Shown piece after piece: positions 48,931 to 56,745 of a DNA stretch of 64,000 bases. Under the pieces are notes generated by a model. It searched no databases. It worked only from the letters and a program-made list of their open reading frames with translations, and had not been told where the DNA came from. The stretch's first letter is position 1. Each line of letters begins with the position of its first letter. The DNA lies in the NCBI GenBank assembly GCA_000165345.1, contig CM000434.1, forward strand, positions 1,024,001 to 1,088,000, given 5' to 3'. Made by a program: the position numbers and the translations under genes.

Positions 48931-50880
48931 ATGAGCTCGGCAAATGCTAAGAGCTCCATTTCAAGTGGTCCTGTAAAAAGTGATTCCATCAATGATGATA
49001 CGAGGATTGAGGCAGAGCTCGTACAACGAGGGAATTTAGTTGGGGAGGCATCACTGGAATGGTCTCTTAATTTTCTGACTCGAAATTGTGATTTTTTAAA
49101 TGAAAGATCAATGTCTCCACTTTCAATTTACGCAGTCCATGTATGGACGGGATCACAGAATTGTGAATTTGCTAATAAGCTTTCTTTTCAAGGAAAGATA
49201 AGAAATATGTTGTTTAAGTTGTTAATTCATCCTGTTCACGAGTTAGTAAACAATTTAAAGACTAATGCTTATTATATTGCAGCTTTGAGTTCCAAAAAAC
49301 CTTTTGATTTTGAACAAAATATGTCCTCACATGGGCTTGAGATCCCCTTAATATCGGGAAAATACTTTGATGGAGATTTTATTCTGAACCAGATGAAGTG
49401 GATCTACAAGTTGTTCCATAATAAAGAGGAGGATGTAGGAAAGCTGTCATTAGAACTCGAAGAAGACGATGAGTTTTTTGATATTACGTTTTCAGATGAT
49501 TTAATAGAGTTTAGCAAGGTTTTCAGCTCAAAGTTGATTTTTCATTGGCTAACTCACCATATTCTCACAAACTTTTTGTATAATCCTAACGGTCCTATTT
49601 CTCTTCTAAGCTTCAACATTCTAATTGAAAAGCTTTCACCCTTCTTTTCCAAATATACAGAGTGCTCACAAATTATGTACTCGGATATTATTGCCTTTTT
49701 TGACTCTGTTTGTGGGATTTGGAGAAATATGAAGGAGAAAAATATCAACAACTTGCTTTCAGTTGCTAATTGTTTAGAAAAATATACTTCAGAGAGCGAA
49801 ACCTTCATGAAATGTCTTACTGATGTTGTTTTAAAGCACTCCCTTGATGAGTTACTTGACAATCTTTCTGAGTTTATTATTGCAATTAATGACGCACTTT
49901 CATGTACAAATTTACATGCACCACTGCCCAGCTCAGCCCGCTCAAACACGTCATCTATGGAGGATAACAAAAAAAAAACAATTCCCCCTGACGTGGATCC
50001 CAAGGAACCATTTAATTCAATTTTTGAGGCAACTGGGTTTGAGCGAGCTGTGTCGGTTTGCAGAGAGTTTCCAGATTTGTTGAGACCCAAGGCGAGGTAC
50101 AGTGAAAAGGTCGTCAAGACGACGCAATTGGTTTTGAACTACTGTTTAAGAAATAACCTAGCAGACCTTAAGTATATAAGGAATATGGGCCACAGAAAAA
50201 AGATAGATGGGGAAAGCTCTAGTGATACTTCAGATTCTCGAAGCAGGGCTAGCTCCTTTCAGGAATTAGACAACAAAAGTTTAGAGGAACAGAATACTGT
50301 TTTGGATGAGAGTGAGGCAATCAGACAATATTTAGCTGGTGGTACATCAAAAAATAGTTTGAATAGTTCTAGTAATGAGAGAAGTAGAGTTCTTTTAGAG
50401 AAGAGTAGCTTGAAGAGGAAAAGCCTTTTTAAGGACGATGACCTAATAGAGTCTGAAAGGCCAAAGAGGTTGAATTTGTATTCAAATGATAAGGGCAAGA
50501 CTGGGAGAAAAATTTCCGTAAGGGGAATTTCTGAGAGCTCAGATTCATCTGAAGACTTTACCCCAAAGCCAATAGTTTCTGAAAAGAGAAGAAACGATGA
50601 GCAGCAATCTGTTCCAAAAAGAGCCCCCAATAAAAGAGCTTCAGCAAGTCCCAATACTGGAGTCTCAAGACAATACCGTCGTTGGAGTGATGAGGAGACA
50701 AGCTTGCTTATTGATGGTGTTAATAAGTTTGGATTAGGAAAATGGAGAATCATCCTAGCTACCTCCAAGTTGACCAACCGTGATGAAGTGGGGCTCAAAG
50801 ATCGTTGGAGGAATCTTGTCAAGGGTGGTCATGTTACTTGGGATCCACAAACTAAGATGTATCGCTCTGTTAAAGGATAG
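48931..50880 (+). CDS. Myb/SANT-domain protein with a single C-terminal telobox-type Myb (TRF/Tbf1-like)
   Basis: C-terminal RQYRRWSDEETSLLIDGVNKFGLGKWRIILATSKLTNRDEVGLKDRWRNLVKG resembles my recollection of the human TRF1 Myb (RKRQAWLWEEDKNLRSGVRKYGEGNWSKIL...RTSVMLKDRWRTMKK), including the LKDRWR telobox core. The remainder is serine-rich and low-complexity with basic patches. Confidence 0.6.
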   Translation: MSSANAKSSISSGPVKSDSINDDTRIEAELVQRGNLVGEASLEWSLNFLTRNCDFLNERSMSPLSIYAVHVWTGSQNCEFANKLSFQGKIRNMLFKLLIHPVHELVNNLKTNAYYIAALSSKKPFDFEQNMSSHGLEIPLISGKYFDGDFILNQMKWIYKLFHNKEEDVGKLSLELEEDDEFFDITFSDDLIEFSKVFSSKLIFHWLTHHILTNFLYNPNGPISLLSFNILIEKLSPFFSKYTECSQIMYSDIIAFFDSVCGIWRNMKEKNINNLLSVANCLEKYTSESETFMKCLTDVVLKHSLDELLDNLSEFIIAINDALSCTNLHAPLPSSARSNTSSMEDNKKKTIPPDVDPKEPFNSIFEATGFERAVSVCREFPDLLRPKARYSEKVVKTTQLVLNYCLRNNLADLKYIRNMGHRKKIDGESSSDTSDSRSRASSFQELDNKSLEEQNTVLDESEAIRQYLAGGTSKNSLNSSSNERSRVLLEKSSLKRKSLFKDDDLIESERPKRLNLYSNDKGKTGRKISVRGISESSDSSEDFTPKPIVSEKRRNDEQQSVPKRAPNKRASASPNTGVSRQYRRWSDEETSLLIDGVNKFGLGKWRIILATSKLTNRDEVGLKDRWRNLVKGGHVTWDPQTKMYRSVKG

Positions 50881-50952
50881 CTGTTACTTTTTAGGCTTCA
50901 TTTTCACTTAGATGAAGTTAATTCGTTCTTTTCTGTTATTTGACTGTGGGGT

Positions 50953-51026
50953 TGGCGCCTTTGCATGTATTATTTCACGATAATAATTTGTCGCGCCCCC
51001 GAGATTGCATGCATGCATGCATGCGG
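50953..51026. promoter_or_regulatory. Upstream motif cluster for gene 51167: TTGGCGCC, GTCGCGCCC and a (GCAT)4-5 / GCATGCA repeat
   Basis: gttGGCGCCtttGCATGtatt...tGTCGCGCCCccgagatTGCATGCATGCATGCATGCggtg, 140-210 bp upstream of the ATG. Confidence 0.5.
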
Positions 51027-51166: not shown

Positions 51167-53279
51167 ATGTCTCAGAGTTCAACACTTTGGAACCAATCCT
51201 ACTCTAGGGAGTTAATAATGGATCATTCGGAAGGGATTGATTGGATTAGTGGCGATGGTTGCCTGGAGAATATTAAAGATTCACATTTTGTGGATTATAG
51301 TGATCCAAATCAAGTTAATATGGAAGATCCTTTAGGAAATAACTTTTATGATTGTACTGATCTTGATGATAGCTTCCATAATTACTTGATGAAGGGTTTA
51401 CTGGGTGAGAATGTTGAAGGTGGCTCAGGCTCTAATAATTTGAATGATGTTTCCTCCGTGAACAGCATCAGAGGTCAAAGTAATGTTGGCGTTACTATTA
51501 GTCACAACAATGATGCCATTTGCCACAACATTGACCACAGAATTGATAGCGTTGGTATTGGAGTGGGATCTCTTGGGGGGGAAGTTGGAGGAGCTTTAGG
51601 GGTGGGTTTAGGAGGAGTGGGAGGAGGAATAGAGATAGGTTTGGGAGTACAAGTAGGAGAGGTGAGAAATCAAGGGGAGAAGGAGTTTGAGAACATAAGC
51701 TGCAGTTACACGGGGAACTCACATTCCCATCAATTGGAGCCACCAAATGAAGATCTCGTAGAAGATCAGAGTAACTGTTACAGGATATCAGCAACTTCAA
51801 ACAATTTGGGTATTTCCAGTAATCATGGACTGTTATTGGGGGCATCTTCCTCTAGCAAAGTCTTGGGAGCTACGCCATCAGCTCAAATATCATCTTCTTT
51901 GTCATCCTCTTCATCATCATCCTCTTCTTCGTTAGCTTCATCTTCATCGTCATCATCTTCATCACCATCATTAACATTGAATTCAGGGCTTCCACCAATA
52001 TCACTACCACCACGAGCTATACCTCCTATAAACTTATCTCAGAGTTTGATGACTCCCACTACATCTGCATCCTCATCATCAGTTAGCCCAATTTCCTTTT
52101 CTCCAAATTCAATGCAATCAGGCCAAAAGCTGATGGGATTTGATCATTCATTCCCAATGGAAAATACACAAAAGAGAGTTCGAATAGAGCCGGAAGAAAG
52201 GATTAGAATGGGTATTTTCGACGATAGTTTAGTGGAATCTGATGTCAAGTTTGCAGATCACCAGATTGTTGAGTTGGATTCAAGTAAAGGAAGAAGGTGG
52301 AGTAACAATTCAACAACTTCAACAATTTCTTCAAACTTTTCAATAAATACAAGTGATGGCGGATGTGTTAGCCATATTAATGATAGCGTAAACAATGAGA
52401 ATCTTGGATTAATGAGCCATGATTTTCAGCAAGACAAGTTTTGTAATACAGAAGATTTAGGATCCCAGAAGCCGAAAATGGCGGACCAAAGCTATGAAAT
52501 GGGAGTAATTGAAGACGAGAACTATTCAATGGGAGGCCAAATGGAGGGGGAATTTTTTATGAACTCGGATAACTACTTAACTGAAGAGGAAAAGCTCAAG
52601 TTAAGGAGGCGAGGAAGGAGGAGAAGACCAGGTAAGTTAAATATTTCTAAACAATTAACAAAGGATCTGACTCTTTATTGTTTTAAATAGGCGAAATAGA
52701 AGCTTGGAAGACTATAATACCTAGAACTACTGTGGATGAAGCTGAGCACTTTGTACAGACAAGTCAATATAGAATGAGACATGTATATAGAGATCCAAGA
52801 GCTGTGAGCTTCGTTTATAGGTAAGTTAAAGATTATGAAAATCATTCAGTATAAGGAGTTTTTTTCTCATTTGGAATCAATTATTTATAGATGTGTACAA
52901 CATGTGGATTGCCAGTATGAGATGAGGATTTACTTAATATCTCACGAAACTTGTTACGTTCAACACAGAGGTTACCATACAGAGGAGAAACAAAAGTACA
53001 AGAGGCCAGGTAAGTTAATTGTTGAAGAGAGGATTTTTCTTAAATCCTTTCTTTTTTTAATTTAGTGTGGATTTGAGTAATTATCTTTTAGGACTCCCTC
53101 AACACACTTTACCGCTCATTGATGAGCTAATAAGAAAAGGCCTTCCTCCAAAGTCAGTAATTGACCATGCAATTCAAATATATCCAGAGGTAGCCGACCA
53201 ATCAAATATTTCAGTACTTTATAGGCAGATTACGAATAGACAACAATATATTAGAAAACGCCAGAGAAATTATGTTTGA
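51167..53279 (+). CDS. Four-exon gene: S/G-rich low-complexity protein whose C-terminus (Arg-rich RRRGRRRRPG stretch plus Cys/His-patterned region) is encoded by three short exons. Exons are 51167..52631, 52691..52820, 52891..53009 and 53092..53279.
   Basis: Track ORF 51167..52690 (507 aa) runs into GGTAAGTT at 52631. Three consecutive GTAAGT donors (52632, 52821, 53010) are matched by TAG or AG acceptors (52690, 52890, 53091). Each junction restores the frame (phases 1, 2, 1). The joined segments are open to a TGA at 53277..53279, consistent with track fragments 52835..53065 and 53067..53279. Joined C-terminus: ...RRRGRRRRPG|EIEAWKTIIPRTTVDEAEHFVQTSQYRMRHVYRDPRAVSFVYR|RCVQHVDCQYEMRIYLISHETCYVQHRGYHTEEKQKYKRP|GLPQHTLPLIDELIRKGLPPKSV...RKRQRNYV. 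Confidence 0.7.
51889..51970 (+). repeat. Coding (TCN)n serine microsatellite (SSSLSSSSSSSSSSLASSSSSSSSSPS)
   Basis: tcatcttctttgtcatcctcttcatcatcatcctcttcttcgttagcttcatcttcatcgtcatcatcttcatcaccatca. Confidence 0.7.
52632..52690 (+). other. Intron 1 (59 nt, GTAAGT...TAG) of gene 51167..53279
   Basis: ccaG|GTAAGTTAAAT...TTTTAAATAG|GCGAA. Joining gives a GGC (Gly) codon and an open frame. Confidence 0.65.
52821..52890 (+). other. Intron 2 (70 nt, GTAAGT...TAG)
   Basis: tttatAG|GTAAGTTAAAG...TTATTTATAG|ATGTG. The alternative acceptor at 52849 gives an immediate stop; this one keeps the frame open. Confidence 0.6.
53010..53091 (+). other. Intron 3 (82 nt, GTAAGT...TAG)
   Basis: aggccaG|GTAAGTTAATT...TCTTTTAG|GACTCC. 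The nearer acceptor at 53065 leads to a TGA after three codons; the 53091 acceptor joins in phase to the final 62-codon exon. Confidence 0.55.
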
Positions 53280-53759
53280 TGGAATTTAATAAAATTTCTG
53301 GCAAAACTTTTTTTAATACCGGTAGAAAGATTGCATGCAGAAAGTTTGCATGCAATAAATTTGAATTATTATCCACATAGAATATAATCACTTTTAGTTT
53401 AGAATAAGCTAAGTATTTTGTAATTTCAAAATAGATCTGACTCTTTGATATTATTGATGATGAAGTTAAAGAGATAAGGGGAATAGTAATGAAAATGGGT
53501 AAATCTGAAAAAAATAAGAAAAGAAAAAGAATAAATAATGAAATTTTCAATAAAATAAATTAGATTTATTTTTCCATCTTAAAGAATTTTTTTTTTGTTT
53601 CTGCAGATAGTTAACAGGAAATTAGTCATGCAGTTGTTTTGGCGCGCAAATTCCTCACAAATAATTTAGTGGAAGGGTAATAAAGATAATAATAAATAAA
53701 AAGTGGAAATAAAAATAAAGGTGGTAGGAAAGGGAGAGAAGAGATTTAAGTAAATTTAC

Positions 53760-53876
53760 ATGGGAATTTTTGGTTTAAAGACGTATGGGTCTGTTTTGGG
53801 TCCAAGAGGAGTGACCCTCAAGGGTTTGGTGGTTTACCTATTAGTAGCATTGGCATTAATGGGAGAGCGAGTCAGG
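53760..53876 (+). CDS. Putative exon 1 of the 54025..56745 gene (39 codons; signal-peptide-like)
   Basis: ATG at 53760 in a relatively GC-richer patch: MGIFGLKTYGSVLGPRGVTLKGLVVYLLVALALMGERVR. It ends exactly on a codon boundary at GTAAGTTG (53877). The acceptor ...AATTAG at 54024 joins in phase 0 to SENIHVFSFEDDEHE... A TTGGCGCGC motif lies 120 bp upstream (53644). Confidence 0.4.
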
Positions 53877-54024
53877 GTAAGTTGAGTTTTTACCATTCAC
53901 ATTTGTTTCCCTCTTCCATTAATAGAGGTTGGGAAAGGTCTGGTGTGAAATTGGAGTAATAATTATTCTTGATTAACTTTTATTTCATAACTTTTTCTTA
54001 ATTAACTATCTAATGAATAATTAG
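53877..54024 (+). other. Putative intron (148 nt, GTAAGT...TAG) between the signal-peptide exon and the main ORF
   Basis: Donor gtcagG|GTAAGTTGAG. The nearer acceptor at 53925 leaves only 16 codons before TAA. The acceptor at 54023/54024 gives a long open frame. Confidence 0.4.
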
Positions 54025-56745
54025 TCAGAGAATATTCACGTTTTTTCCTTCGAGGATGATGAGCATGAGGCTGGAAACCAATACGTCTTTGATAACTTGA
54101 CAAACTCAAATTCAGAACATGAGTTGAACTCCCCCTTTGGAATAGTTCCTTCAAATGAACATCATACCGGCATTGATGCGCATGTGGACAATTCTGATGA
54201 ACACATTTTACAGAAATCCGAGCATAGGAGTTTGTCTGGTCTGGGTGAGGTCGGTAGTTCTAAAAAAGTTTTTGGAGAAGGGGCTACTAGAAGGGAGGTT
54301 GGAGATGAAGTGGAAAGCATCTATAGTGAAGAAGACGGGGGAATATATATGGATACGGAGCAGGATGAGGAAATTGGGGATATAGAGAGTTTTTTAAGCT
54401 TTGATAGTGAATTTGAGAAAAATGAGATGGAAGAGGGGATTATTGGCAATGCTGCTGATAAAGTGAACAAAGTAGCAGTTGGTTTAGATACTGCTCGGGA
54501 AGGTCAGACCGAAGACAAGCAAGAGATAGTACGTAGTACGGAAGAAGTGAGTAAAGGAAAGGCTGATATAAAAGTTAAAAAGAGGACAGGAGAGGAAACC
54601 AAAAAGGAAACTGAGGCAAAAGGAGATGCAGAAGTTGGGATTGAGGGGAAGGAGCACCACCACGTGGCTCGGGAAGCTGTTCAGCAAAAAGGTGAGGCTA
54701 AAGTAATGGGTGAGAAGAAGTCTCAGGAGAAATCCAAAGCGTCTGGGGTTAGTTCTTTGGGGAGATCGAAAAGAAAAAGTGAAGGAGAAAGTGAAGATGG
54801 CGAGGCAACAACAAATAGTAATAGTAGTGAAGAGAAGAAAAAGCCAGAAAGCGGAGTTATTGAGGACTCAGATACCTTATCTGACAAAGTTAAGATAAAG
54901 ACGGAAAATGTTCATATGAAGAAGCATATTAAAACAATTCAAACTCCTGGACAGGAACCTAAGGAGGGGAACCAAACCCAAAATACTCCATATGTTTCAG
55001 TTAGTGCAAATGACTCAGCTAATGCTAATAATTCGGTTAGTGCTAATATTAACGGTTCTATTTCTTCAGTAGTTCCAATTATGAAAGCTGAGGCAGATTT
55101 TTATACAAAAAATACCAATGAAACTTTAAATATAGGAGTTGAAAGTTCTGGGAAGGTTGCTGACGTTCCTAGCGAAGCAACAGCCTTAGGAGAGGGATAC
55201 GTAGGTTCTGGAAAGAATATCACAACAGAAGCAACGAGACAGGGGCCAAGCACTAATATCAAGCAAAAGTCACTAAAGAAAGCAGCGTCTTCAAGCAGAG
55301 ATAAAAGCAAAAGAAAATCAAGCAGGACGGATGATTCTGCTCTAAAAAAGGTTTCTAGAGAATCAAATAAAGGGGAGGGCCTGGAATCTCCTAAATCTGC
55401 TCGTCTAGGATCTAGTAGAGGAGATAATCCCAAGACGACTAAACATAAAAAGCATAAACAATACAAAGATTTGAAATTTAATTCAAAAGAAATAGAAGAT
55501 TCTGAAGCACGTTTCAAAGACAGGTACCGATGTTTGAATGTAAATACAAATATTTTTGAGTCCCTAAGAGTTTTAGATCCTTCTTCTAACCAGACTTGCC
55601 TAACAAATTCAGAGTTTGATGGTTTGAATGTCACGAGAGGTCTCACAGAAGATGATAAAGAACAGAGAAAGGAGTCTAAGCAGAGATTGGGGCCTTTAAA
55701 GAAGATGGAAACAGAAAAGAAAAATTGCTCTTTTTATTCTATTTGGCAGGAATTTACCGATCAAGTGAATAATATGTGTACTCAATTAGAACATAAAGTC
55801 GATTCCAGTTCAAAAAAACCATTAATTGCGGATCTACAGACATCCATTGCCAACATAACCAGTAACTTAAACAATACTGCTACTACTTCTACTACAACGG
55901 TAGCGTTTAATATTACAGAAATTACGACTGAAAATATATCTGGGATAAGAGAAAAGAAAGAAATCAACTCCTCTTCAACTGAAGAGAAGCCAAAAATATT
56001 GAATCTTGCTGGTACTGAAAGAATGGTGGAAGTTCCACAAAATTATTCTAATCCAATAAAGTCAGATGGTGCAAAAAGTGAGAGGAGTAAGATGAATTCC
56101 AAAAGTAAAGTAAGCTGGACAAGAATTCTTCAGAAGATTAGAATATTGAATATTCCTGATATTTATATTCAAGCTACTGCTAAAAAGATACTCAAGTTCA
56201 ATATATATATTTACAGGATATATACGGATAAATACAAGAGAAAAATAATTAAAAGAGTACAGGGAATTCTGAGAAATTTAAAAATAGTAAATAAGTCTCA
56301 AATGATCAAAGATAGGCACTTTTTGGGAGCTTACACGATCTTTGGATCACTATTAACTGCATTATTACTCCTATCTATTGCAACATTTCACGGAAGACAA
56401 TATGCTGAGAAATCTGAAGATATACTGGTTGAGGCAGAAACTATTAAAAAGCTTGGATTTGTGGGAGGTAAAATTAAGATGATAAGCAGCCATCTATCAA
56501 ATTCAGATACAGGAATTGAAAGAGTGGTATTCTCTGATGATCCAAGCTCTATCTGTCAAATGATCTTGAAAAGTAAATCAATTGTAGCCCAGAATCCCAG
56601 TAATATTGATTATACTGAAGAGATAACCGATTCTAAAGACTTAAATTCTATTTTGAACTTAACTACTAGATTGGAAGAGAATAATGAGATTTTACTCCAT
56701 CTCTCAAATGGATTAGCTAAATGTGCTCAGTCTCTTACAATATAA
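54025..56745 (+). CDS. Acidic, K/E/S/T-rich low-complexity protein with a single TM helix near the C-terminus; 5' end uncertain
   Basis: The track ORF begins at a TTG (54097). The frame is open from 54025, the first codon after an in-frame TAG that also forms the acceptor AG. The first in-frame ATG is only at 54349 (MDTEQDEE). The open 108-codon stretch upstream of that ATG in an AT-rich genome argues that it is coding and is fed by the upstream exon. C-terminal hydrophobic helix LGAYTIFGSLLTALLLLSIATF, then a roughly 120-aa tail. Confidence 0.6.
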   Translation, partial: SENIHVFSFEDDEHEAGNQYVFDNLTNSNSEHELNSPFGIVPSNEHHTGIDAHVDNSDEHILQKSEHRSLSGLGEVGSSKKVFGEGATRREVGDEVESIYSEEDGGIYMDTEQDEEIGDIESFLSFDSEFEKNEMEEGIIGNAADKVNKVAVGLDTAREGQTEDKQEIVRSTEEVSKGKADIKVKKRTGEETKKETEAKGDAEVGIEGKEHHHVAREAVQQKGEAKVMGEKKSQEKSKASGVSSLGRSKRKSEGESEDGEATTNSNSSEEKKKPESGVIEDSDTLSDKVKIKTENVHMKKHIKTIQTPGQEPKEGNQTQNTPYVSVSANDSANANNSVSANINGSISSVVPIMKAEADFYTKNTNETLNIGVESSGKVADVPSEATALGEGYVGSGKNITTEATRQGPSTNIKQKSLKKAASSSRDKSKRKSSRTDDSALKKVSRESNKGEGLESPKSARLGSSRGDNPKTTKHKKHKQYKDLKFNSKEIEDSEARFKDRYRCLNVNTNIFESLRVLDPSSNQTCLTNSEFDGLNVTRGLTEDDKEQRKESKQRLGPLKKMETEKKNCSFYSIWQEFTDQVNNMCTQLEHKVDSSSKKPLIADLQTSIANITSNLNNTATTSTTTVAFNITEITTENISGIREKKEINSSSTEEKPKILNLAGTERMVEVPQNYSNPIKSDGAKSERSKMNSKSKVSWTRILQKIRILNIPDIYIQATAKKILKFNIYIYRIYTDKYKRKIIKRVQGILRNLKIVNKSQMIKDRHFLGAYTIFGSLLTALLLLSIATFHGRQYAEKSEDILVEAETIKKLGFVGGKIKMISSHLSNSDTGIERVVFSDDPSSICQMILKSKSIVAQNPSNIDYTEEITDSKDLNSILNLTTRLEENNEILLHLSNGLAKCAQSLTI

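What the first reader, a model, noticed from the sequence alone, without database searches (positions are those of the whole stretch)
51167..53279. Intron-rich gene in an intron-poor genome: three short GTAAGT introns encode an Arg-rich stretch plus a Cys/His-patterned C-terminal region of unassigned family
All four GGTAAGT hexamers in the 64-kb window lie within 52.6-53.9 kb. Three interrupt the 3' end of ORF 51167. Each has an in-phase TAG/AG acceptor 59-82 nt downstream. The spliced frame is continuous to a TGA at 53279 and links three otherwise orphan track ORFs. The encoded tail has an Arg-rich stretch (RRRGRRRRPG). It is followed by TTVDEAEHFVQTSQYRMRHVYRDPRAVSFVYRRCVQHVDCQYEMRIYLISHETCYVQHRGYH, with spacing C-x5-C-x13-C-x3-H-x3-H. 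It ends in a basic helical segment (LPLIDELIRKGLPPKSVIDHAIQ...RKRQR). I cannot assign this to a known family. The body is an S/G-rich low-complexity protein with a coding Ser microsatellite, typical of nuclear regulators in this lineage. This may be a novel DNA-binding domain.
Basis: partly seen in the sequence, partly recalled or inferred. Interest (0 to 1): 0.72.

Follow-up and report, generated by a model that had tools for sequence, protein, structure and literature searches.

The report
Unrecognised WRKY-like DNA-binding protein, Cryptosporidium
The three introns are real and already in the current Cryptosporidium parvum annotation (gene cgd6_4520), and the "unassigned" tail they join most likely folds as a WRKY-type zinc finger plus a helix-turn-helix, so this gene, which is more highly expressed in female stages, is probably a transcription factor that published lists have missed.

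Summary
The window is C. parvum chromosome 6. That is identical to the deposited proteins QOY41340.1 and WRK33060.1 (CPATCC_0016150 / cpbgf_6004520, "uncharacterized"). The old cgd6_4520 model is the unspliced 507-aa ORF. All three introns sit at the same positions in a very AT-rich relative. So the gene structure is correct, but it is not new.

The added value is the C-terminal 163 aa:
- Pfam and PDB sequence searches find nothing.
- The helical end matches mariner/SETMAR transposase HTHs and homeodomains.
- The only relatives outside the genus are a few small proteins, one of them from the oomycete Saprolegnia.
- Published RNA-seq shows about 19-fold higher expression in females than in asexual stages.

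Best reading: a genus-conserved, previously unlisted transcription factor with a divergent, transposase-like WRKY-GCM1 + HTH DNA-binding module. DNA binding and zinc binding are inferred, not shown.

The parts
51006..51021 (.). Three overlapping TGCATGCA motifs, (TGCA)x4.8, about 150 nt upstream of the ATG. This is a likely promoter element; TGCATGCA is the AP2_1 motif bound by several ApiAP2 factors.
   Evidence: 15 sites in the window against 0.84 expected. The motif identity comes from PMC12246861. A role at this particular gene is inferred.
51167..52631 (+). Exon 1 (aa 1-488 plus the first base of Gly489). It encodes an acidic (pI 4.4), Ser/Gly-rich, low-complexity N-terminal region and most of the Arg-rich arm.
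51335..51412 (+). Conserved N-terminal motif GNNFYDC(T/S)(D/E)(L/V)DD..HNYL.KGLLG. Its function is unknown; it could be an interaction or activation motif.
   Evidence: Conserved between C. parvum, C. felis and the AT-rich relative L001, while the surrounding sequence is unalignable.
51887..51964 (+). Coding poly-Ser microsatellite (ISSSLSSSSSSSSSSLASSSSSSSSS).
   Evidence: It is absent from the orthologues in L001 and C. felis.
52268..52333 (+). Conserved motif ELDS.(K/R)GRRWSNNS..ST(I/V)SS. The RRxS core looks like a basophilic-kinase site; that reading is inference.
   Evidence: Invariant in four Cryptosporidium-lineage sequences.
52604..52692 (+). Arg-rich arm RRRGRRRRPG (aa 480-489), spanning intron 1. 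It is a candidate NLS and/or DNA-backbone or minor-groove arm. It is not a canonical AT-hook because it has no GRP core.
   Evidence: Invariant across Cryptosporidium orthologues. Predicted disordered (pLDDT below 50 for model residues 9-20).
52632..52690 (+). Intron 1: 59 nt, phase 1, GTAAGT...TAG, 22% GC. If it is retained, translation stops at 52688-52690; that read-through is the old 507-aa model.
   Evidence: An intron sits at the same position in L001 (72 nt).
52691..52820 (+). Exon 2 (130 nt). It encodes the N-terminal strand-helix and the first two core strands of the zinc finger.
   Evidence: The exon length is identical in L001.
52705..52978 (+). WRKY-GCM1-like zinc-finger domain (aa 494-561), spanning intron 2. 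Predicted topology is beta-alpha-beta-beta-beta-beta. Conserved candidate ligands are C533, H536, C539 and H561.
52821..52890 (+). Intron 2: 70 nt, phase 2, GTAAGT...TAG. It lies immediately before the codon of the first conserved Cys (C533).
52891..53009 (+). Exon 3 (119 nt). It encodes the Cys/His knuckle, the last two core strands and the basic linker KQKYKRPG.
53010..53091 (+). Intron 3: 82 nt, phase 1, GTAAGT...TAG. It lies in the linker between the zinc finger and the helical domain.
53092..53279 (+). Exon 4 (188 nt including the TGA). It encodes the helical domain.
53009..53276 (+). C-terminal helical HTH-like domain (aa 572-633, pI about 10), spanning intron 3. It has three main helices. 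The last is a long basic helix carrying the family-invariant Asn620 (Q-x-x-N-R-x-x-Y-[IL]-[RK]).

Best explanation
This is C. parvum gene cgd6_4520 (CPATCC_0016150 / cpbgf_6004520). It is a four-exon gene whose three short 3' introns must be removed to join a 470-aa acidic, low-complexity N-terminal region to a basic, 163-aa bipartite DNA-binding module.

The module has three parts:
1. A disordered Arg-rich arm.
2. A divergent WRKY-GCM1-fold zinc finger with an extra N-terminal strand-helix. An N-terminal helix before the first core strand is the feature reported for the versions found in Mutator-like (MULE/FAR1-type) transposases.
3. A three-helix HTH of the homeodomain / Tc1-mariner transposase kind.

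The most likely mechanism is a sequence-specific nuclear transcription factor. The exposed first core strand (YRMRHVYR, which is equivalent to WRKYGQK) would contact the major groove. The basic C-terminal helix would contact an adjacent site. The Arg arm would serve as an NLS and/or a backbone or minor-groove anchor. The acidic N-terminus would act as the effector region.

Its mRNA is strongly enriched in female gamonts, so it probably acts in female development.

Shown here: the gene model, its conservation, and the absence of any Pfam assignment. Shown by prediction only: the fold. Inferred: zinc binding, DNA binding, nuclear location and regulatory role.
For: **Gene model**
- The spliced product is exactly QOY41340.1 / WRK33060.1.
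- The paper describing the CPATCC_ reannotation says its introns are 100% RNA-seq supported (PMC8744675).
- L001, a 22%-GC relative with the orthologous Myb gene immediately upstream, has introns at the same three codon positions and identical exon lengths (130/119/188 nt). Optimal global alignment of the introns gives only about 50-58% identical columns.

**Selection**
- Over the last 150 codons, 140 aa are identical despite 78 synonymous codon differences. dN is 0.049 and dS is saturated.
- The N-terminal region is largely unalignable.

**Fold**
- AF2 pLDDT is 78.
- The Foldseek top hits are WRKY18 (E 3e-3, probability 1.00) and a WRKY domain, 9m0k (probability 0.99, TM 0.68).
- hhalign places C533 and C539 on the two WRKY Cys, and G-x-H561 on the WRKY G-x-H (P 0.0036).

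**Charge**
- The N-terminal region has pI 4.4 and the C-terminal module pI 9.8.

**Expression**
- log2 CPM is 4.68 in asexual stages, 8.91 in females in vitro and 8.32 in females in vivo. LogFC is 4.23. The gene is in the "Female in vitro only" sheet of the top-500 expressed-gene comparison (PMC6877471 supplements).
Against: - No sequence-level membership: hmmscan against Pfam finds no WRKY, FAR1, FLYWCH or HTH family at E up to 10, for this protein or its homologues.
- PDB sequence and profile searches give only noise.
- The hhalign probability against WRKY is only 9%.
- Both AF2 models rest on the same seven-sequence alignment.
- The canonical second His of the WRKY HxH is absent (H561-T-E).
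- There is no experimental evidence for DNA binding, zinc binding or nuclear localisation.
- A 2025 review of Cryptosporidium gene regulation does not list the gene.
Confidence: 0.62

Rival explanations
1. The C-terminal module is a relic or domesticated DNA-binding fragment of a transposase (WRKY-GCM1 finger plus mariner-like HTH). Its function would be something other than promoter-specific transcription control, for example binding repeats, centromeres or telomeres, organising chromatin, or genome defence, as with CENP-B-type domestications.
For: - The finger has the N-terminal helix reported for MULE-transposase versions.
- Among the best HTH matches are transposase DNA-binding domains: SETMAR, Mos1, TnsB, IstA and Tc3.
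- Relatives outside the genus are short stand-alone proteins scattered in an oomycete and in metagenomes. That pattern fits a mobile-element origin.
- The upstream neighbour is a telomeric-type Myb protein.
Against: - No transposase catalytic domain is present in this protein or next to the homologues on their short contigs.
- The gene appears single-copy (the exhaustive search returned one orthologue cluster per Cryptosporidium species), keeps its upstream neighbour, and is under strong purifying selection across Cryptosporidium.
- It has an acidic low-complexity N-terminus typical of activators.
- Its expression is stage-specific.
- This reading also overlaps with the best explanation, because domesticated transposase DNA-binding domains often are transcription factors.
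Confidence: 0.15
2. One reading: a genuinely novel DNA-binding fold of unassigned family, built on a C-x5-C-x13-C-x3-H-x3-H metal site.
For: - No Pfam or PDB sequence match.
- The pattern is present in the C. parvum sequence.
- The fold evidence comes only from predictions based on a shallow alignment.
Against: - C553 and H557 of that pattern are not conserved in the distant homologues, whereas C533, H536, C539 and H561 are.
- Two models and two structure-comparison methods converge on WRKY/AFT2.
- The sequence register agrees with WRKY (YYRC...C...YxGxH against VYRC...C...HRGYH).
Confidence: 0.1
3. The module does not bind DNA. It would be a protein- or RNA-interaction domain that merely shares a small beta-sheet plus helical-bundle shape with DNA-binding domains.
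For: - Helical-bundle hits also include non-DNA-binding modules: the NAB2 N-terminal domain, FF domains and Roquin ROQ.
- The zinc-finger segment on its own is near neutral (pI 6.7).
Against: - Many of the best interpretable hits for both halves are DNA-bound structures of DNA-binding domains.
- The whole module is basic (pI 9.8) and is preceded by an Arg-rich arm.
- An invariant Asn, followed by a largely conserved Arg, sits in the long basic last helix, as in recognition helices.
Confidence: 0.1
4. The unspliced 507-aa ORF (the old cgd6_4520 / XP_627783 model) is the real product, and the downstream ORFs are non-coding.
For: It was the deposited model of the 2004 Iowa II annotation. It is also a continuous ORF.
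Against: [quoted passage not shown]
- The paper describing the CPATCC_ reannotation reports RNA-seq support for all its introns.
- The downstream exons are 93% identical in protein to a relative whose synonymous sites are saturated, whereas the introns align at only about 50-58% identical columns and differ in length.
Confidence: 0.02

Closest known systems
WRKY DNA-binding domains (plant WRKY1/4/17/18/33) and AFT2, within the WRKY-GCM1 zinc-finger superfamily
   Same: - Predicted four-stranded antiparallel core.
- A Cys at the end of strand 2 and a Cys at the start of strand 3, with C-x5-C spacing like the WRKY C-x4-5-C.
- A G-x-H at the end of strand 4.
- hhalign gives the same register.
   Different: - No WRKYGQK strand; this protein has YRMRHVYR instead.
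- The second His of HxH is missing. An invariant His lies inside the Cys knuckle (C-x2-H-x2-C) and may replace it.
- It has an extra N-terminal strand-helix.
- It does not pass any Pfam WRKY model.
- It is fused to an HTH.
MULE-transposase-associated WRKY-GCM1 fingers (the FAR1/FHY3 'insert-containing' family and the HxC family; Babu et al. 2006, PMC1702500)
   Same: [quoted passage not shown]
- A basic Arg-rich arm precedes the finger here; Babu et al. report AT-hook motifs fused to some of the MULE transposase versions.
- Stand-alone versions without a transposase are known to have been recruited as transcription factors.
- The sequence logic is similar: F/W..s.eeA..F beta-alpha, then Y.C...C...H.
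   Different: - No Pfam FAR1 hit.
- No MULE catalytic domain or SWIM finger.
- No long insert between the Cys ligands.
- The C-terminal ligands are not HxH or HxC.
- Babu et al. report nothing from Cryptosporidium or oomycetes.
Tc1/mariner-type transposase HTH (Mos1, SETMAR DBD, Tc3) and homeodomain-like HTHs
   Same: - The C-terminal 60 aa are predicted as a three-helix bundle that superposes on the SETMAR and Mos1 HTHs at 1.5-1.6 A over 49 residues.
- The last helix is long and basic, with an invariant Asn followed by a largely conserved Arg.
   Different: - No sequence-family match.
- There is a single HTH, not the paired bipartite HTH of mariner.
- It sits C-terminal to a zinc finger, an arrangement I did not find described.
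Known Cryptosporidium transcription-factor families (ApiAP2, E2F/DP, Myb, C2H2 ZnF) as listed in PMC12246861
   Same: - Stage-specific expression; this gene is female-enriched, like several ApiAP2s.
- TGCATGCA motifs lie in its upstream region.
   Different: - The DNA-binding fold is different.
- The gene is not in the TF-family tables returned by my term search of that review; I did not read the C2H2 table in full.
- No homologue was detected in other apicomplexans by an exhaustive HMMER search.

Membership tests
Spliceosomal (GT-AG) introns of a real protein-coding gene | GT...AG boundaries that restore a single reading frame. The introns themselves are non-coding (stops or frameshift if retained). 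| tested here: met
   The introns are 59, 70 and 82 nt long and all carry in-frame stops. The spliced frame is 1902 nt.
Spliceosomal (GT-AG) introns of a real protein-coding gene | Intron positions conserved in orthologues, while intron sequence and length drift. | tested here: met
   L001 has the same three codon positions, with introns of 72, 66 and 61 nt and about 50-58% identical alignment columns. The exons are identical in length and 93% identical in protein. The C. felis and C. canis deposited models carry spurious insertions exactly at junctions 1 and 2, and diverge (frameshifted tail or fusion) after junction 3 or in exon 4.
Spliceosomal (GT-AG) introns of a real protein-coding gene | Spliced transcripts observed. 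| not testable with these tools
   No read data are available here. Indirect evidence: the product is identical to deposited proteins carrying CPATCC_ and cpbgf_ gene names, and the paper describing the CPATCC_ reannotation states that its introns are 100% RNA-seq supported.
WRKY-GCM1 zinc-finger superfamily (fold level) | A four-stranded antiparallel beta-sheet core that superposes on WRKY, GCM1 or AFT structures. | tested here: met
WRKY-GCM1 zinc-finger superfamily (fold level) | Two N-terminal Cys ligands, one at the end of strand 2 and one at the start of strand 3. | tested here: met
   C533 and C539 are conserved in the full-length family members (C533 is absent only from the fragmentary P0031). 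hhalign aligns them to the WRKY Cys pair.
WRKY-GCM1 zinc-finger superfamily (fold level) | A C-terminal HxH or HxC ligand pair. | tested here: not met
   Only the first His (H561, in the conserved G-x-H) is present. The +2 position is Glu in C. parvum and varies in the homologues. The invariant H536 may substitute, but its geometry could not be examined.
WRKY-GCM1 zinc-finger superfamily (fold level) | Zinc is actually bound. | not testable with these tools
   This needs metal analysis or a structure.
Pfam WRKY (PF03106), FAR1 (PF03101) and FLYWCH (PF04500) sequence families | A hit to the family HMM at or above its gathering score. | tested here: not met
   hmmscan at E up to 10 returned no such family for the C. 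parvum protein, its 163-aa tail, or seven homologues.
MULE-type WRKY-GCM1 fingers (FAR1-type / HxC) | [quoted passage not shown] | tested here: met
   Model helix 33-42 precedes strand 47-53. The P0025 model shows the same arrangement. The feature is defined in PMC1702500.
MULE-type WRKY-GCM1 fingers (FAR1-type / HxC) | Linkage to a MULE transposase catalytic (RNase H-fold DDE) domain. | tested here: not met
   The protein ends after the HTH. No such domain was found in Pfam scans. Nothing transposase-like was seen by eye among the ORFs on the short contigs of the homologues; those ORFs were not scanned against Pfam.
AT-hook | An R-G-R-P (GRP) core flanked by basic residues. | tested here: not met
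   The sequence reads RRRGRRRRPG and KYKRPGLP, with no GRP tripeptide. There is no Pfam AT_hook hit.
Homeodomain-like / Tc1-mariner HTH | A three-helix bundle with a recognition helix, superposable on known HTH DNA-binding domains. | tested here: inconclusive

The most novel reading that the evidence does not exclude
cgd6_4520 is a Cryptosporidium-genus-specific, female-gamont transcription factor. It would use a previously undescribed bipartite DNA-binding module: a WRKY-GCM1 finger with a C-x2-H-x2-C...H metal site, fused to a mariner/homeodomain-like HTH. Among detected sequences, the module is shared only with small oomycete-type proteins. That would mean either an ancient SAR-lineage DNA-binding domain lost from all other apicomplexans, or a transposon-derived or horizontally acquired module domesticated at the base of Cryptosporidium. 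It would be a regulator of female development or oocyst formation missing from the current ApiAP2/E2F/Myb/C2H2 picture. A further, more speculative layer concerns the three introns. They bracket or interrupt the segments that encode the DNA-binding module, in a genome that is otherwise intron-poor. Regulated intron retention could therefore switch between a form with the DNA-binding domain and a form without it.
Probability: 0.3. Interest if true: 0.72.

Novelty: new variant of a known kind. Interest (0 to 1): 0.52.

Why it matters
Cryptosporidium has a small known set of transcription factors. Only a few of them (Myb-M, AP2-F, AP2-M) have been tied to sexual development, the stage that produces transmissible oocysts. 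This gene is genus-conserved and strongly enriched in females, and its product most likely has a WRKY-type zinc finger plus an HTH. It would add a new DNA-binding family to that set. It would also give a concrete candidate regulator that can be tested with existing genetics (tagging, conditional knock-down, CUT&RUN).

The case also matters for annotation:
- The DNA-binding module is invisible in the 2004 model still carried by UniProt Q5CWM1 and XP_627783.
- The gene is mis-spliced or fused in the deposited C. felis and C. canis models.
- Domain-based censuses run on those models would therefore miss it.

On the evolutionary side, it would extend the WRKY-GCM1 superfamily, and the link between transposons and transcription factors, to alveolates and oomycetes.

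Tried and rejected
- **Pfam.** hmmscan of the full protein, the tail and seven homologues found nothing relevant.
- **PDB sequence searches.** phmmer and a profile search against PDB sequences gave only noise.
- **First word-indexed homologue search.** It found only an unspliced read-through ORF from a relative. A profile search added only one fragmentary metagenome protein, P0031.
- They accepted it once the identical deposited protein had been retrieved.
- **AFDB.** Foldseek against afdb50 was unavailable, so I could not check for annotated AFDB relatives.
- **hhalign against a small WRKY alignment.** It gave the expected register but only 9% probability. I treat this as weak support, not proof.
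- **Context of the non-Cryptosporidium homologues.** The contigs are too short to show a transposase or to identify the organism, except for Saprolegnia.
- **Literature.**
  - No paper text names the gene under any ID.
  - Walzer et al. 2024 (single-cell atlas) and Iyer et al. 2008 (protist TF census) are not held. I could not check whether either mentions the gene or the domain.
- **Rejected: canonical AT-hook.** There is no GRP core.
C553 and H557 are not conserved.
- **Rejected: the 507-aa unspliced product.**
- **Not possible: metal-site geometry.** Model coordinates are not exposed.
Full report
**Identity of the locus.** The window is Cryptosporidium parvum chromosome 6. An exact-sequence look-up shows that ORF 51167-52690 (507 aa) is the original Iowa II model of cgd6_4520 (XP_627783.1 / EAK90044.1 / UniProt Q5CWM1, "hypothetical protein"). 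The upstream ORF 48931-50880 is the telomeric-type Myb/SANT protein cgd6_4510. The downstream ORF is cgd6_4530.

**The observation**
- The result is one 1902-nt frame ending at the TGA at 53277-53279.
- The 633-aa translation is letter-for-letter identical to the deposited proteins QOY41340.1 and WRK33060.1 ("Uncharacterized protein CPATCC_0016150 / cpbgf_6004520"). C. hominis and C. tyzzeri have 632- and 626-aa orthologues in the same 90% cluster.
- The splicing inference is therefore right, but it is already in the reference annotation.
- The introns are 59, 70 and 82 nt long, 22-24% GC, and in phases 1, 2 and 1. All start AGGTAAGTTAA, end in AG, and contain in-frame stops if retained.

**Errors in the finding**
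- The window holds eight GGTAAGT sites, not four. The count alone is unremarkable (expected 4.6).
- Four of eight within 1245 nt is unlikely by chance (P about 0.002).
- The fourth clustered site (53876) is the donor of the single intron of the neighbouring gene cgd6_4530.

**Conservation**
- A Logan contig (L001, 22% GC) comes from a relative in the Cryptosporidium lineage. The orthologous Myb gene lies immediately upstream of its copy of this gene.
- Manual splicing of that copy shows introns at exactly the same three codon positions. The introns are 72, 66 and 61 nt, with GTATGT or GTAAGT donors. Exon lengths are identical (130/119/188 nt).
- Over the last 150 codons, 140 residues are identical although 78 codons differ synonymously. 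dN is 0.049 and dS is saturated. Optimal global alignment of the introns gives only about 50-58% identical columns.
- The N-terminal region cannot be aligned except for two short motifs, GNNFYDC..DD..HNYL.KGLLG and ELDS.GRRWSNNS..STISS.
- The deposited C. felis and C. canis models carry spurious insertions at junctions 1 and 2. One also has a frameshifted tail, and the other is fused to the downstream gene. The same introns evidently exist there and still defeat automatic annotation.

**What the C-terminal module is: sequence searches**
- Pfam gives no hit at E up to 10, and PDB sequences give only noise.
- An exhaustive HMMER search of 1.84 billion representatives with the 163-aa tail found the Cryptosporidium orthologues. 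It also found five small proteins (122-206 aa) at E 6e-6 to 8e-4, plus one 601-aa repetitive protein at E 7e-4 that I did not pursue.
- One of the small proteins is from the oomycete Saprolegnia parasitica (SPRG_17841). The others come from metagenome or SRA assemblies of unknown organisms.
- No other apicomplexan was detected. None of the homologues has a relevant Pfam hit.
- On their short contigs the two homologues whose ORFs I examined are stand-alone ORFs with no visible transposase.
- In the alignments, the conserved positions are C533, H536, C539, G559, H561, D582, G588, P591 and N620 (numbering).

**What the C-terminal module is: structure prediction**
- An AlphaFold2 model of the tail, built on this seven-sequence alignment, has mean pLDDT 78.
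- The Arg-rich arm and the KQKYKRPG linker are predicted disordered.
- The order of elements is strand 25-32, helix 33-42, strands 47-53, 58-63, 72-77 and 82-88, then helices 105-116, 121-131, 133-136 and 141-162.
- Foldseek independently ranks the WRKY18 DNA-binding domain first (E 3e-3, probability 1.00). It gives another WRKY domain probability 0.99 with TM 0.68.
- A profile-profile comparison with five PDB-verified WRKY domains gives only 9% probability. It does produce the expected register: VYRC on YYRC, C539 on the second WRKY Cys, and G-x-H561 on the WRKY G-x-H.
- Babu et al. [quoted passage not shown] That paper mentions neither Cryptosporidium nor oomycetes.

**Interpretation**
- The product is a modular nuclear-type protein.
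- The 470-aa N-terminal region is acidic (pI 4.4) and rich in Ser and Gly, and it evolves fast.
- The 163-aa C-terminus is basic (pI 9.8). It consists of an Arg-rich arm, a divergent WRKY-GCM1-fold finger of the MULE/FAR1-like kind, and a homeodomain/mariner-like HTH.
- Introns 1 and 3 fall at the module boundaries: after RRRRPG, and in the linker after KRPG. Intron 2 falls immediately before the first Cys ligand. Exons 2 and 3 therefore encode the finger, and exon 4 encodes the HTH.
- The most likely function is sequence-specific DNA binding and transcriptional regulation.
- Membership of the WRKY, FAR1 or FLYWCH sequence families is not met. The canonical HxH is incomplete. Zinc and DNA binding are untested.
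- I therefore file it as a new variant within the WRKY-GCM1 fold class, not as a member of any named family.

**Biological context**
- Tandel et al. 2019 sorted-stage RNA-seq lists cgd6_4520 ("Uncharacterized protein") at these levels (PMC6877471):

| Stage | Mean log2 CPM |
|---|---|
| Asexual, in vitro | 4.68 |
| Female, in vitro | 8.91 |
| Female, in vivo | 8.32 |

- The female-versus-asexual LogFC is 4.23, about 19-fold.
- The gene is in the "Female in vitro only" sheet of the top-500 expressed-gene comparison.
- The gene did not appear in the ApiAP2, E2F/DP, Myb and C2H2 tables returned by my term search of a 2025 review of Cryptosporidium gene regulation; I did not read the C2H2 table in full. 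The neighbour cgd6_4510 is listed (PMC12246861).
- No searchable paper text mentions any of the gene's IDs.
- The upstream intergenic region carries three overlapping TGCATGCA (AP2_1) motifs at 51006-51021. Two more lie just downstream of the stop codon. The window holds 15 against 0.84 expected.

**Limits**
- Two potentially relevant papers, Walzer 2024 and Iyer 2008, could not be read.

**Verdict**
- The sequence observation is essentially correct but already annotated.
- The interpretation "novel DNA-binding domain" is better stated as "unrecognised, divergent WRKY-GCM1 + HTH DNA-binding module".
- The gene is a credible, testable candidate female-stage transcription factor.

Noticed in passing
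window 53760-54100 (donor GGTAAGT at 53876): The fourth clustered GGTAAGT is the donor of the single intron of the next gene, cgd6_4530. That gene starts at the ATG at 53760 (MGIFGLK...GERVR|). Deposited models disagree on the acceptor: one gives 935 aa (...ERVR-DDEHEAG) and another 943 aa (...ERVR-NIHVFSFEDDEHEAG). The Iowa II model is 798 aa and an older one is 962 aa. This could be alternative 3' splice-site use or an unresolved annotation.
   Followed up: partly
window 51006-51021, 53332-53339, 53347-53354: TGCATGCA (the AP2_1 motif) occurs 15 times in the window against 0.84 expected. Five of the 15 flank this gene: three overlapping copies about 150 nt upstream of the ATG, and two 50-75 nt past the stop, which places them upstream of cgd6_4530.
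   Followed up: partly
window 50952-50959 and 53637-53650: E2F-like sites lie in the intergenic regions on either side of the gene. TTGGCGCC is upstream of cgd6_4520. The palindromic TTTGGCGCGCAAA is upstream of cgd6_4530.
   Followed up: no
P0023 (C. felis KAF7455783.1); P0022 and P0032 (C. canis KAJ1605275.1 / KAJ1609954.1): The deposited orthologue models in C. felis and C. canis are wrong at the same three introns. They carry spurious insertions at junctions 1 and 2. C. felis also has a frameshifted C-terminus. In C. canis the gene is fused to the cgd6_4530 orthologue, giving 1178 and 1399 aa.
   Followed up: partly
window 30509, 32094, 40353, 62668 (+ strand): Four further GGTAAGT sites, all on the + strand. 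Each lies in only a short open frame (84-258 nt). I did not determine whether they are splice donors of other genes.
   Followed up: no
window 51335-51412 and 52268-52333: Two short islands stay conserved in an otherwise unalignable N-terminal region: GNNFYDC..DD..HNYL.KGLLG and ELDS.GRRWSNNS..STISS. The second has an RRxS core that looks like a basophilic-kinase site. They are likely regulatory or interaction motifs.
   Followed up: partly
L001 1-40: The end of the Logan contig from the AT-rich relative consists of a tandem 8-mer, (CTTATCCC)n. Its nature is not examined; it could be telomere-like, an assembly artefact or something else.
   Followed up: no
L006 947-1681: Next to the small homologue P0025, on an ENA metagenome contig, lies a 244-aa ORF. 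It contains three imperfect copies of a repeat of about 33 aa (D(A/D)LDLLLTMF(Q/K)AM.LG(A/S)SEVAY...). It has no Pfam hit on record.
   Followed up: no
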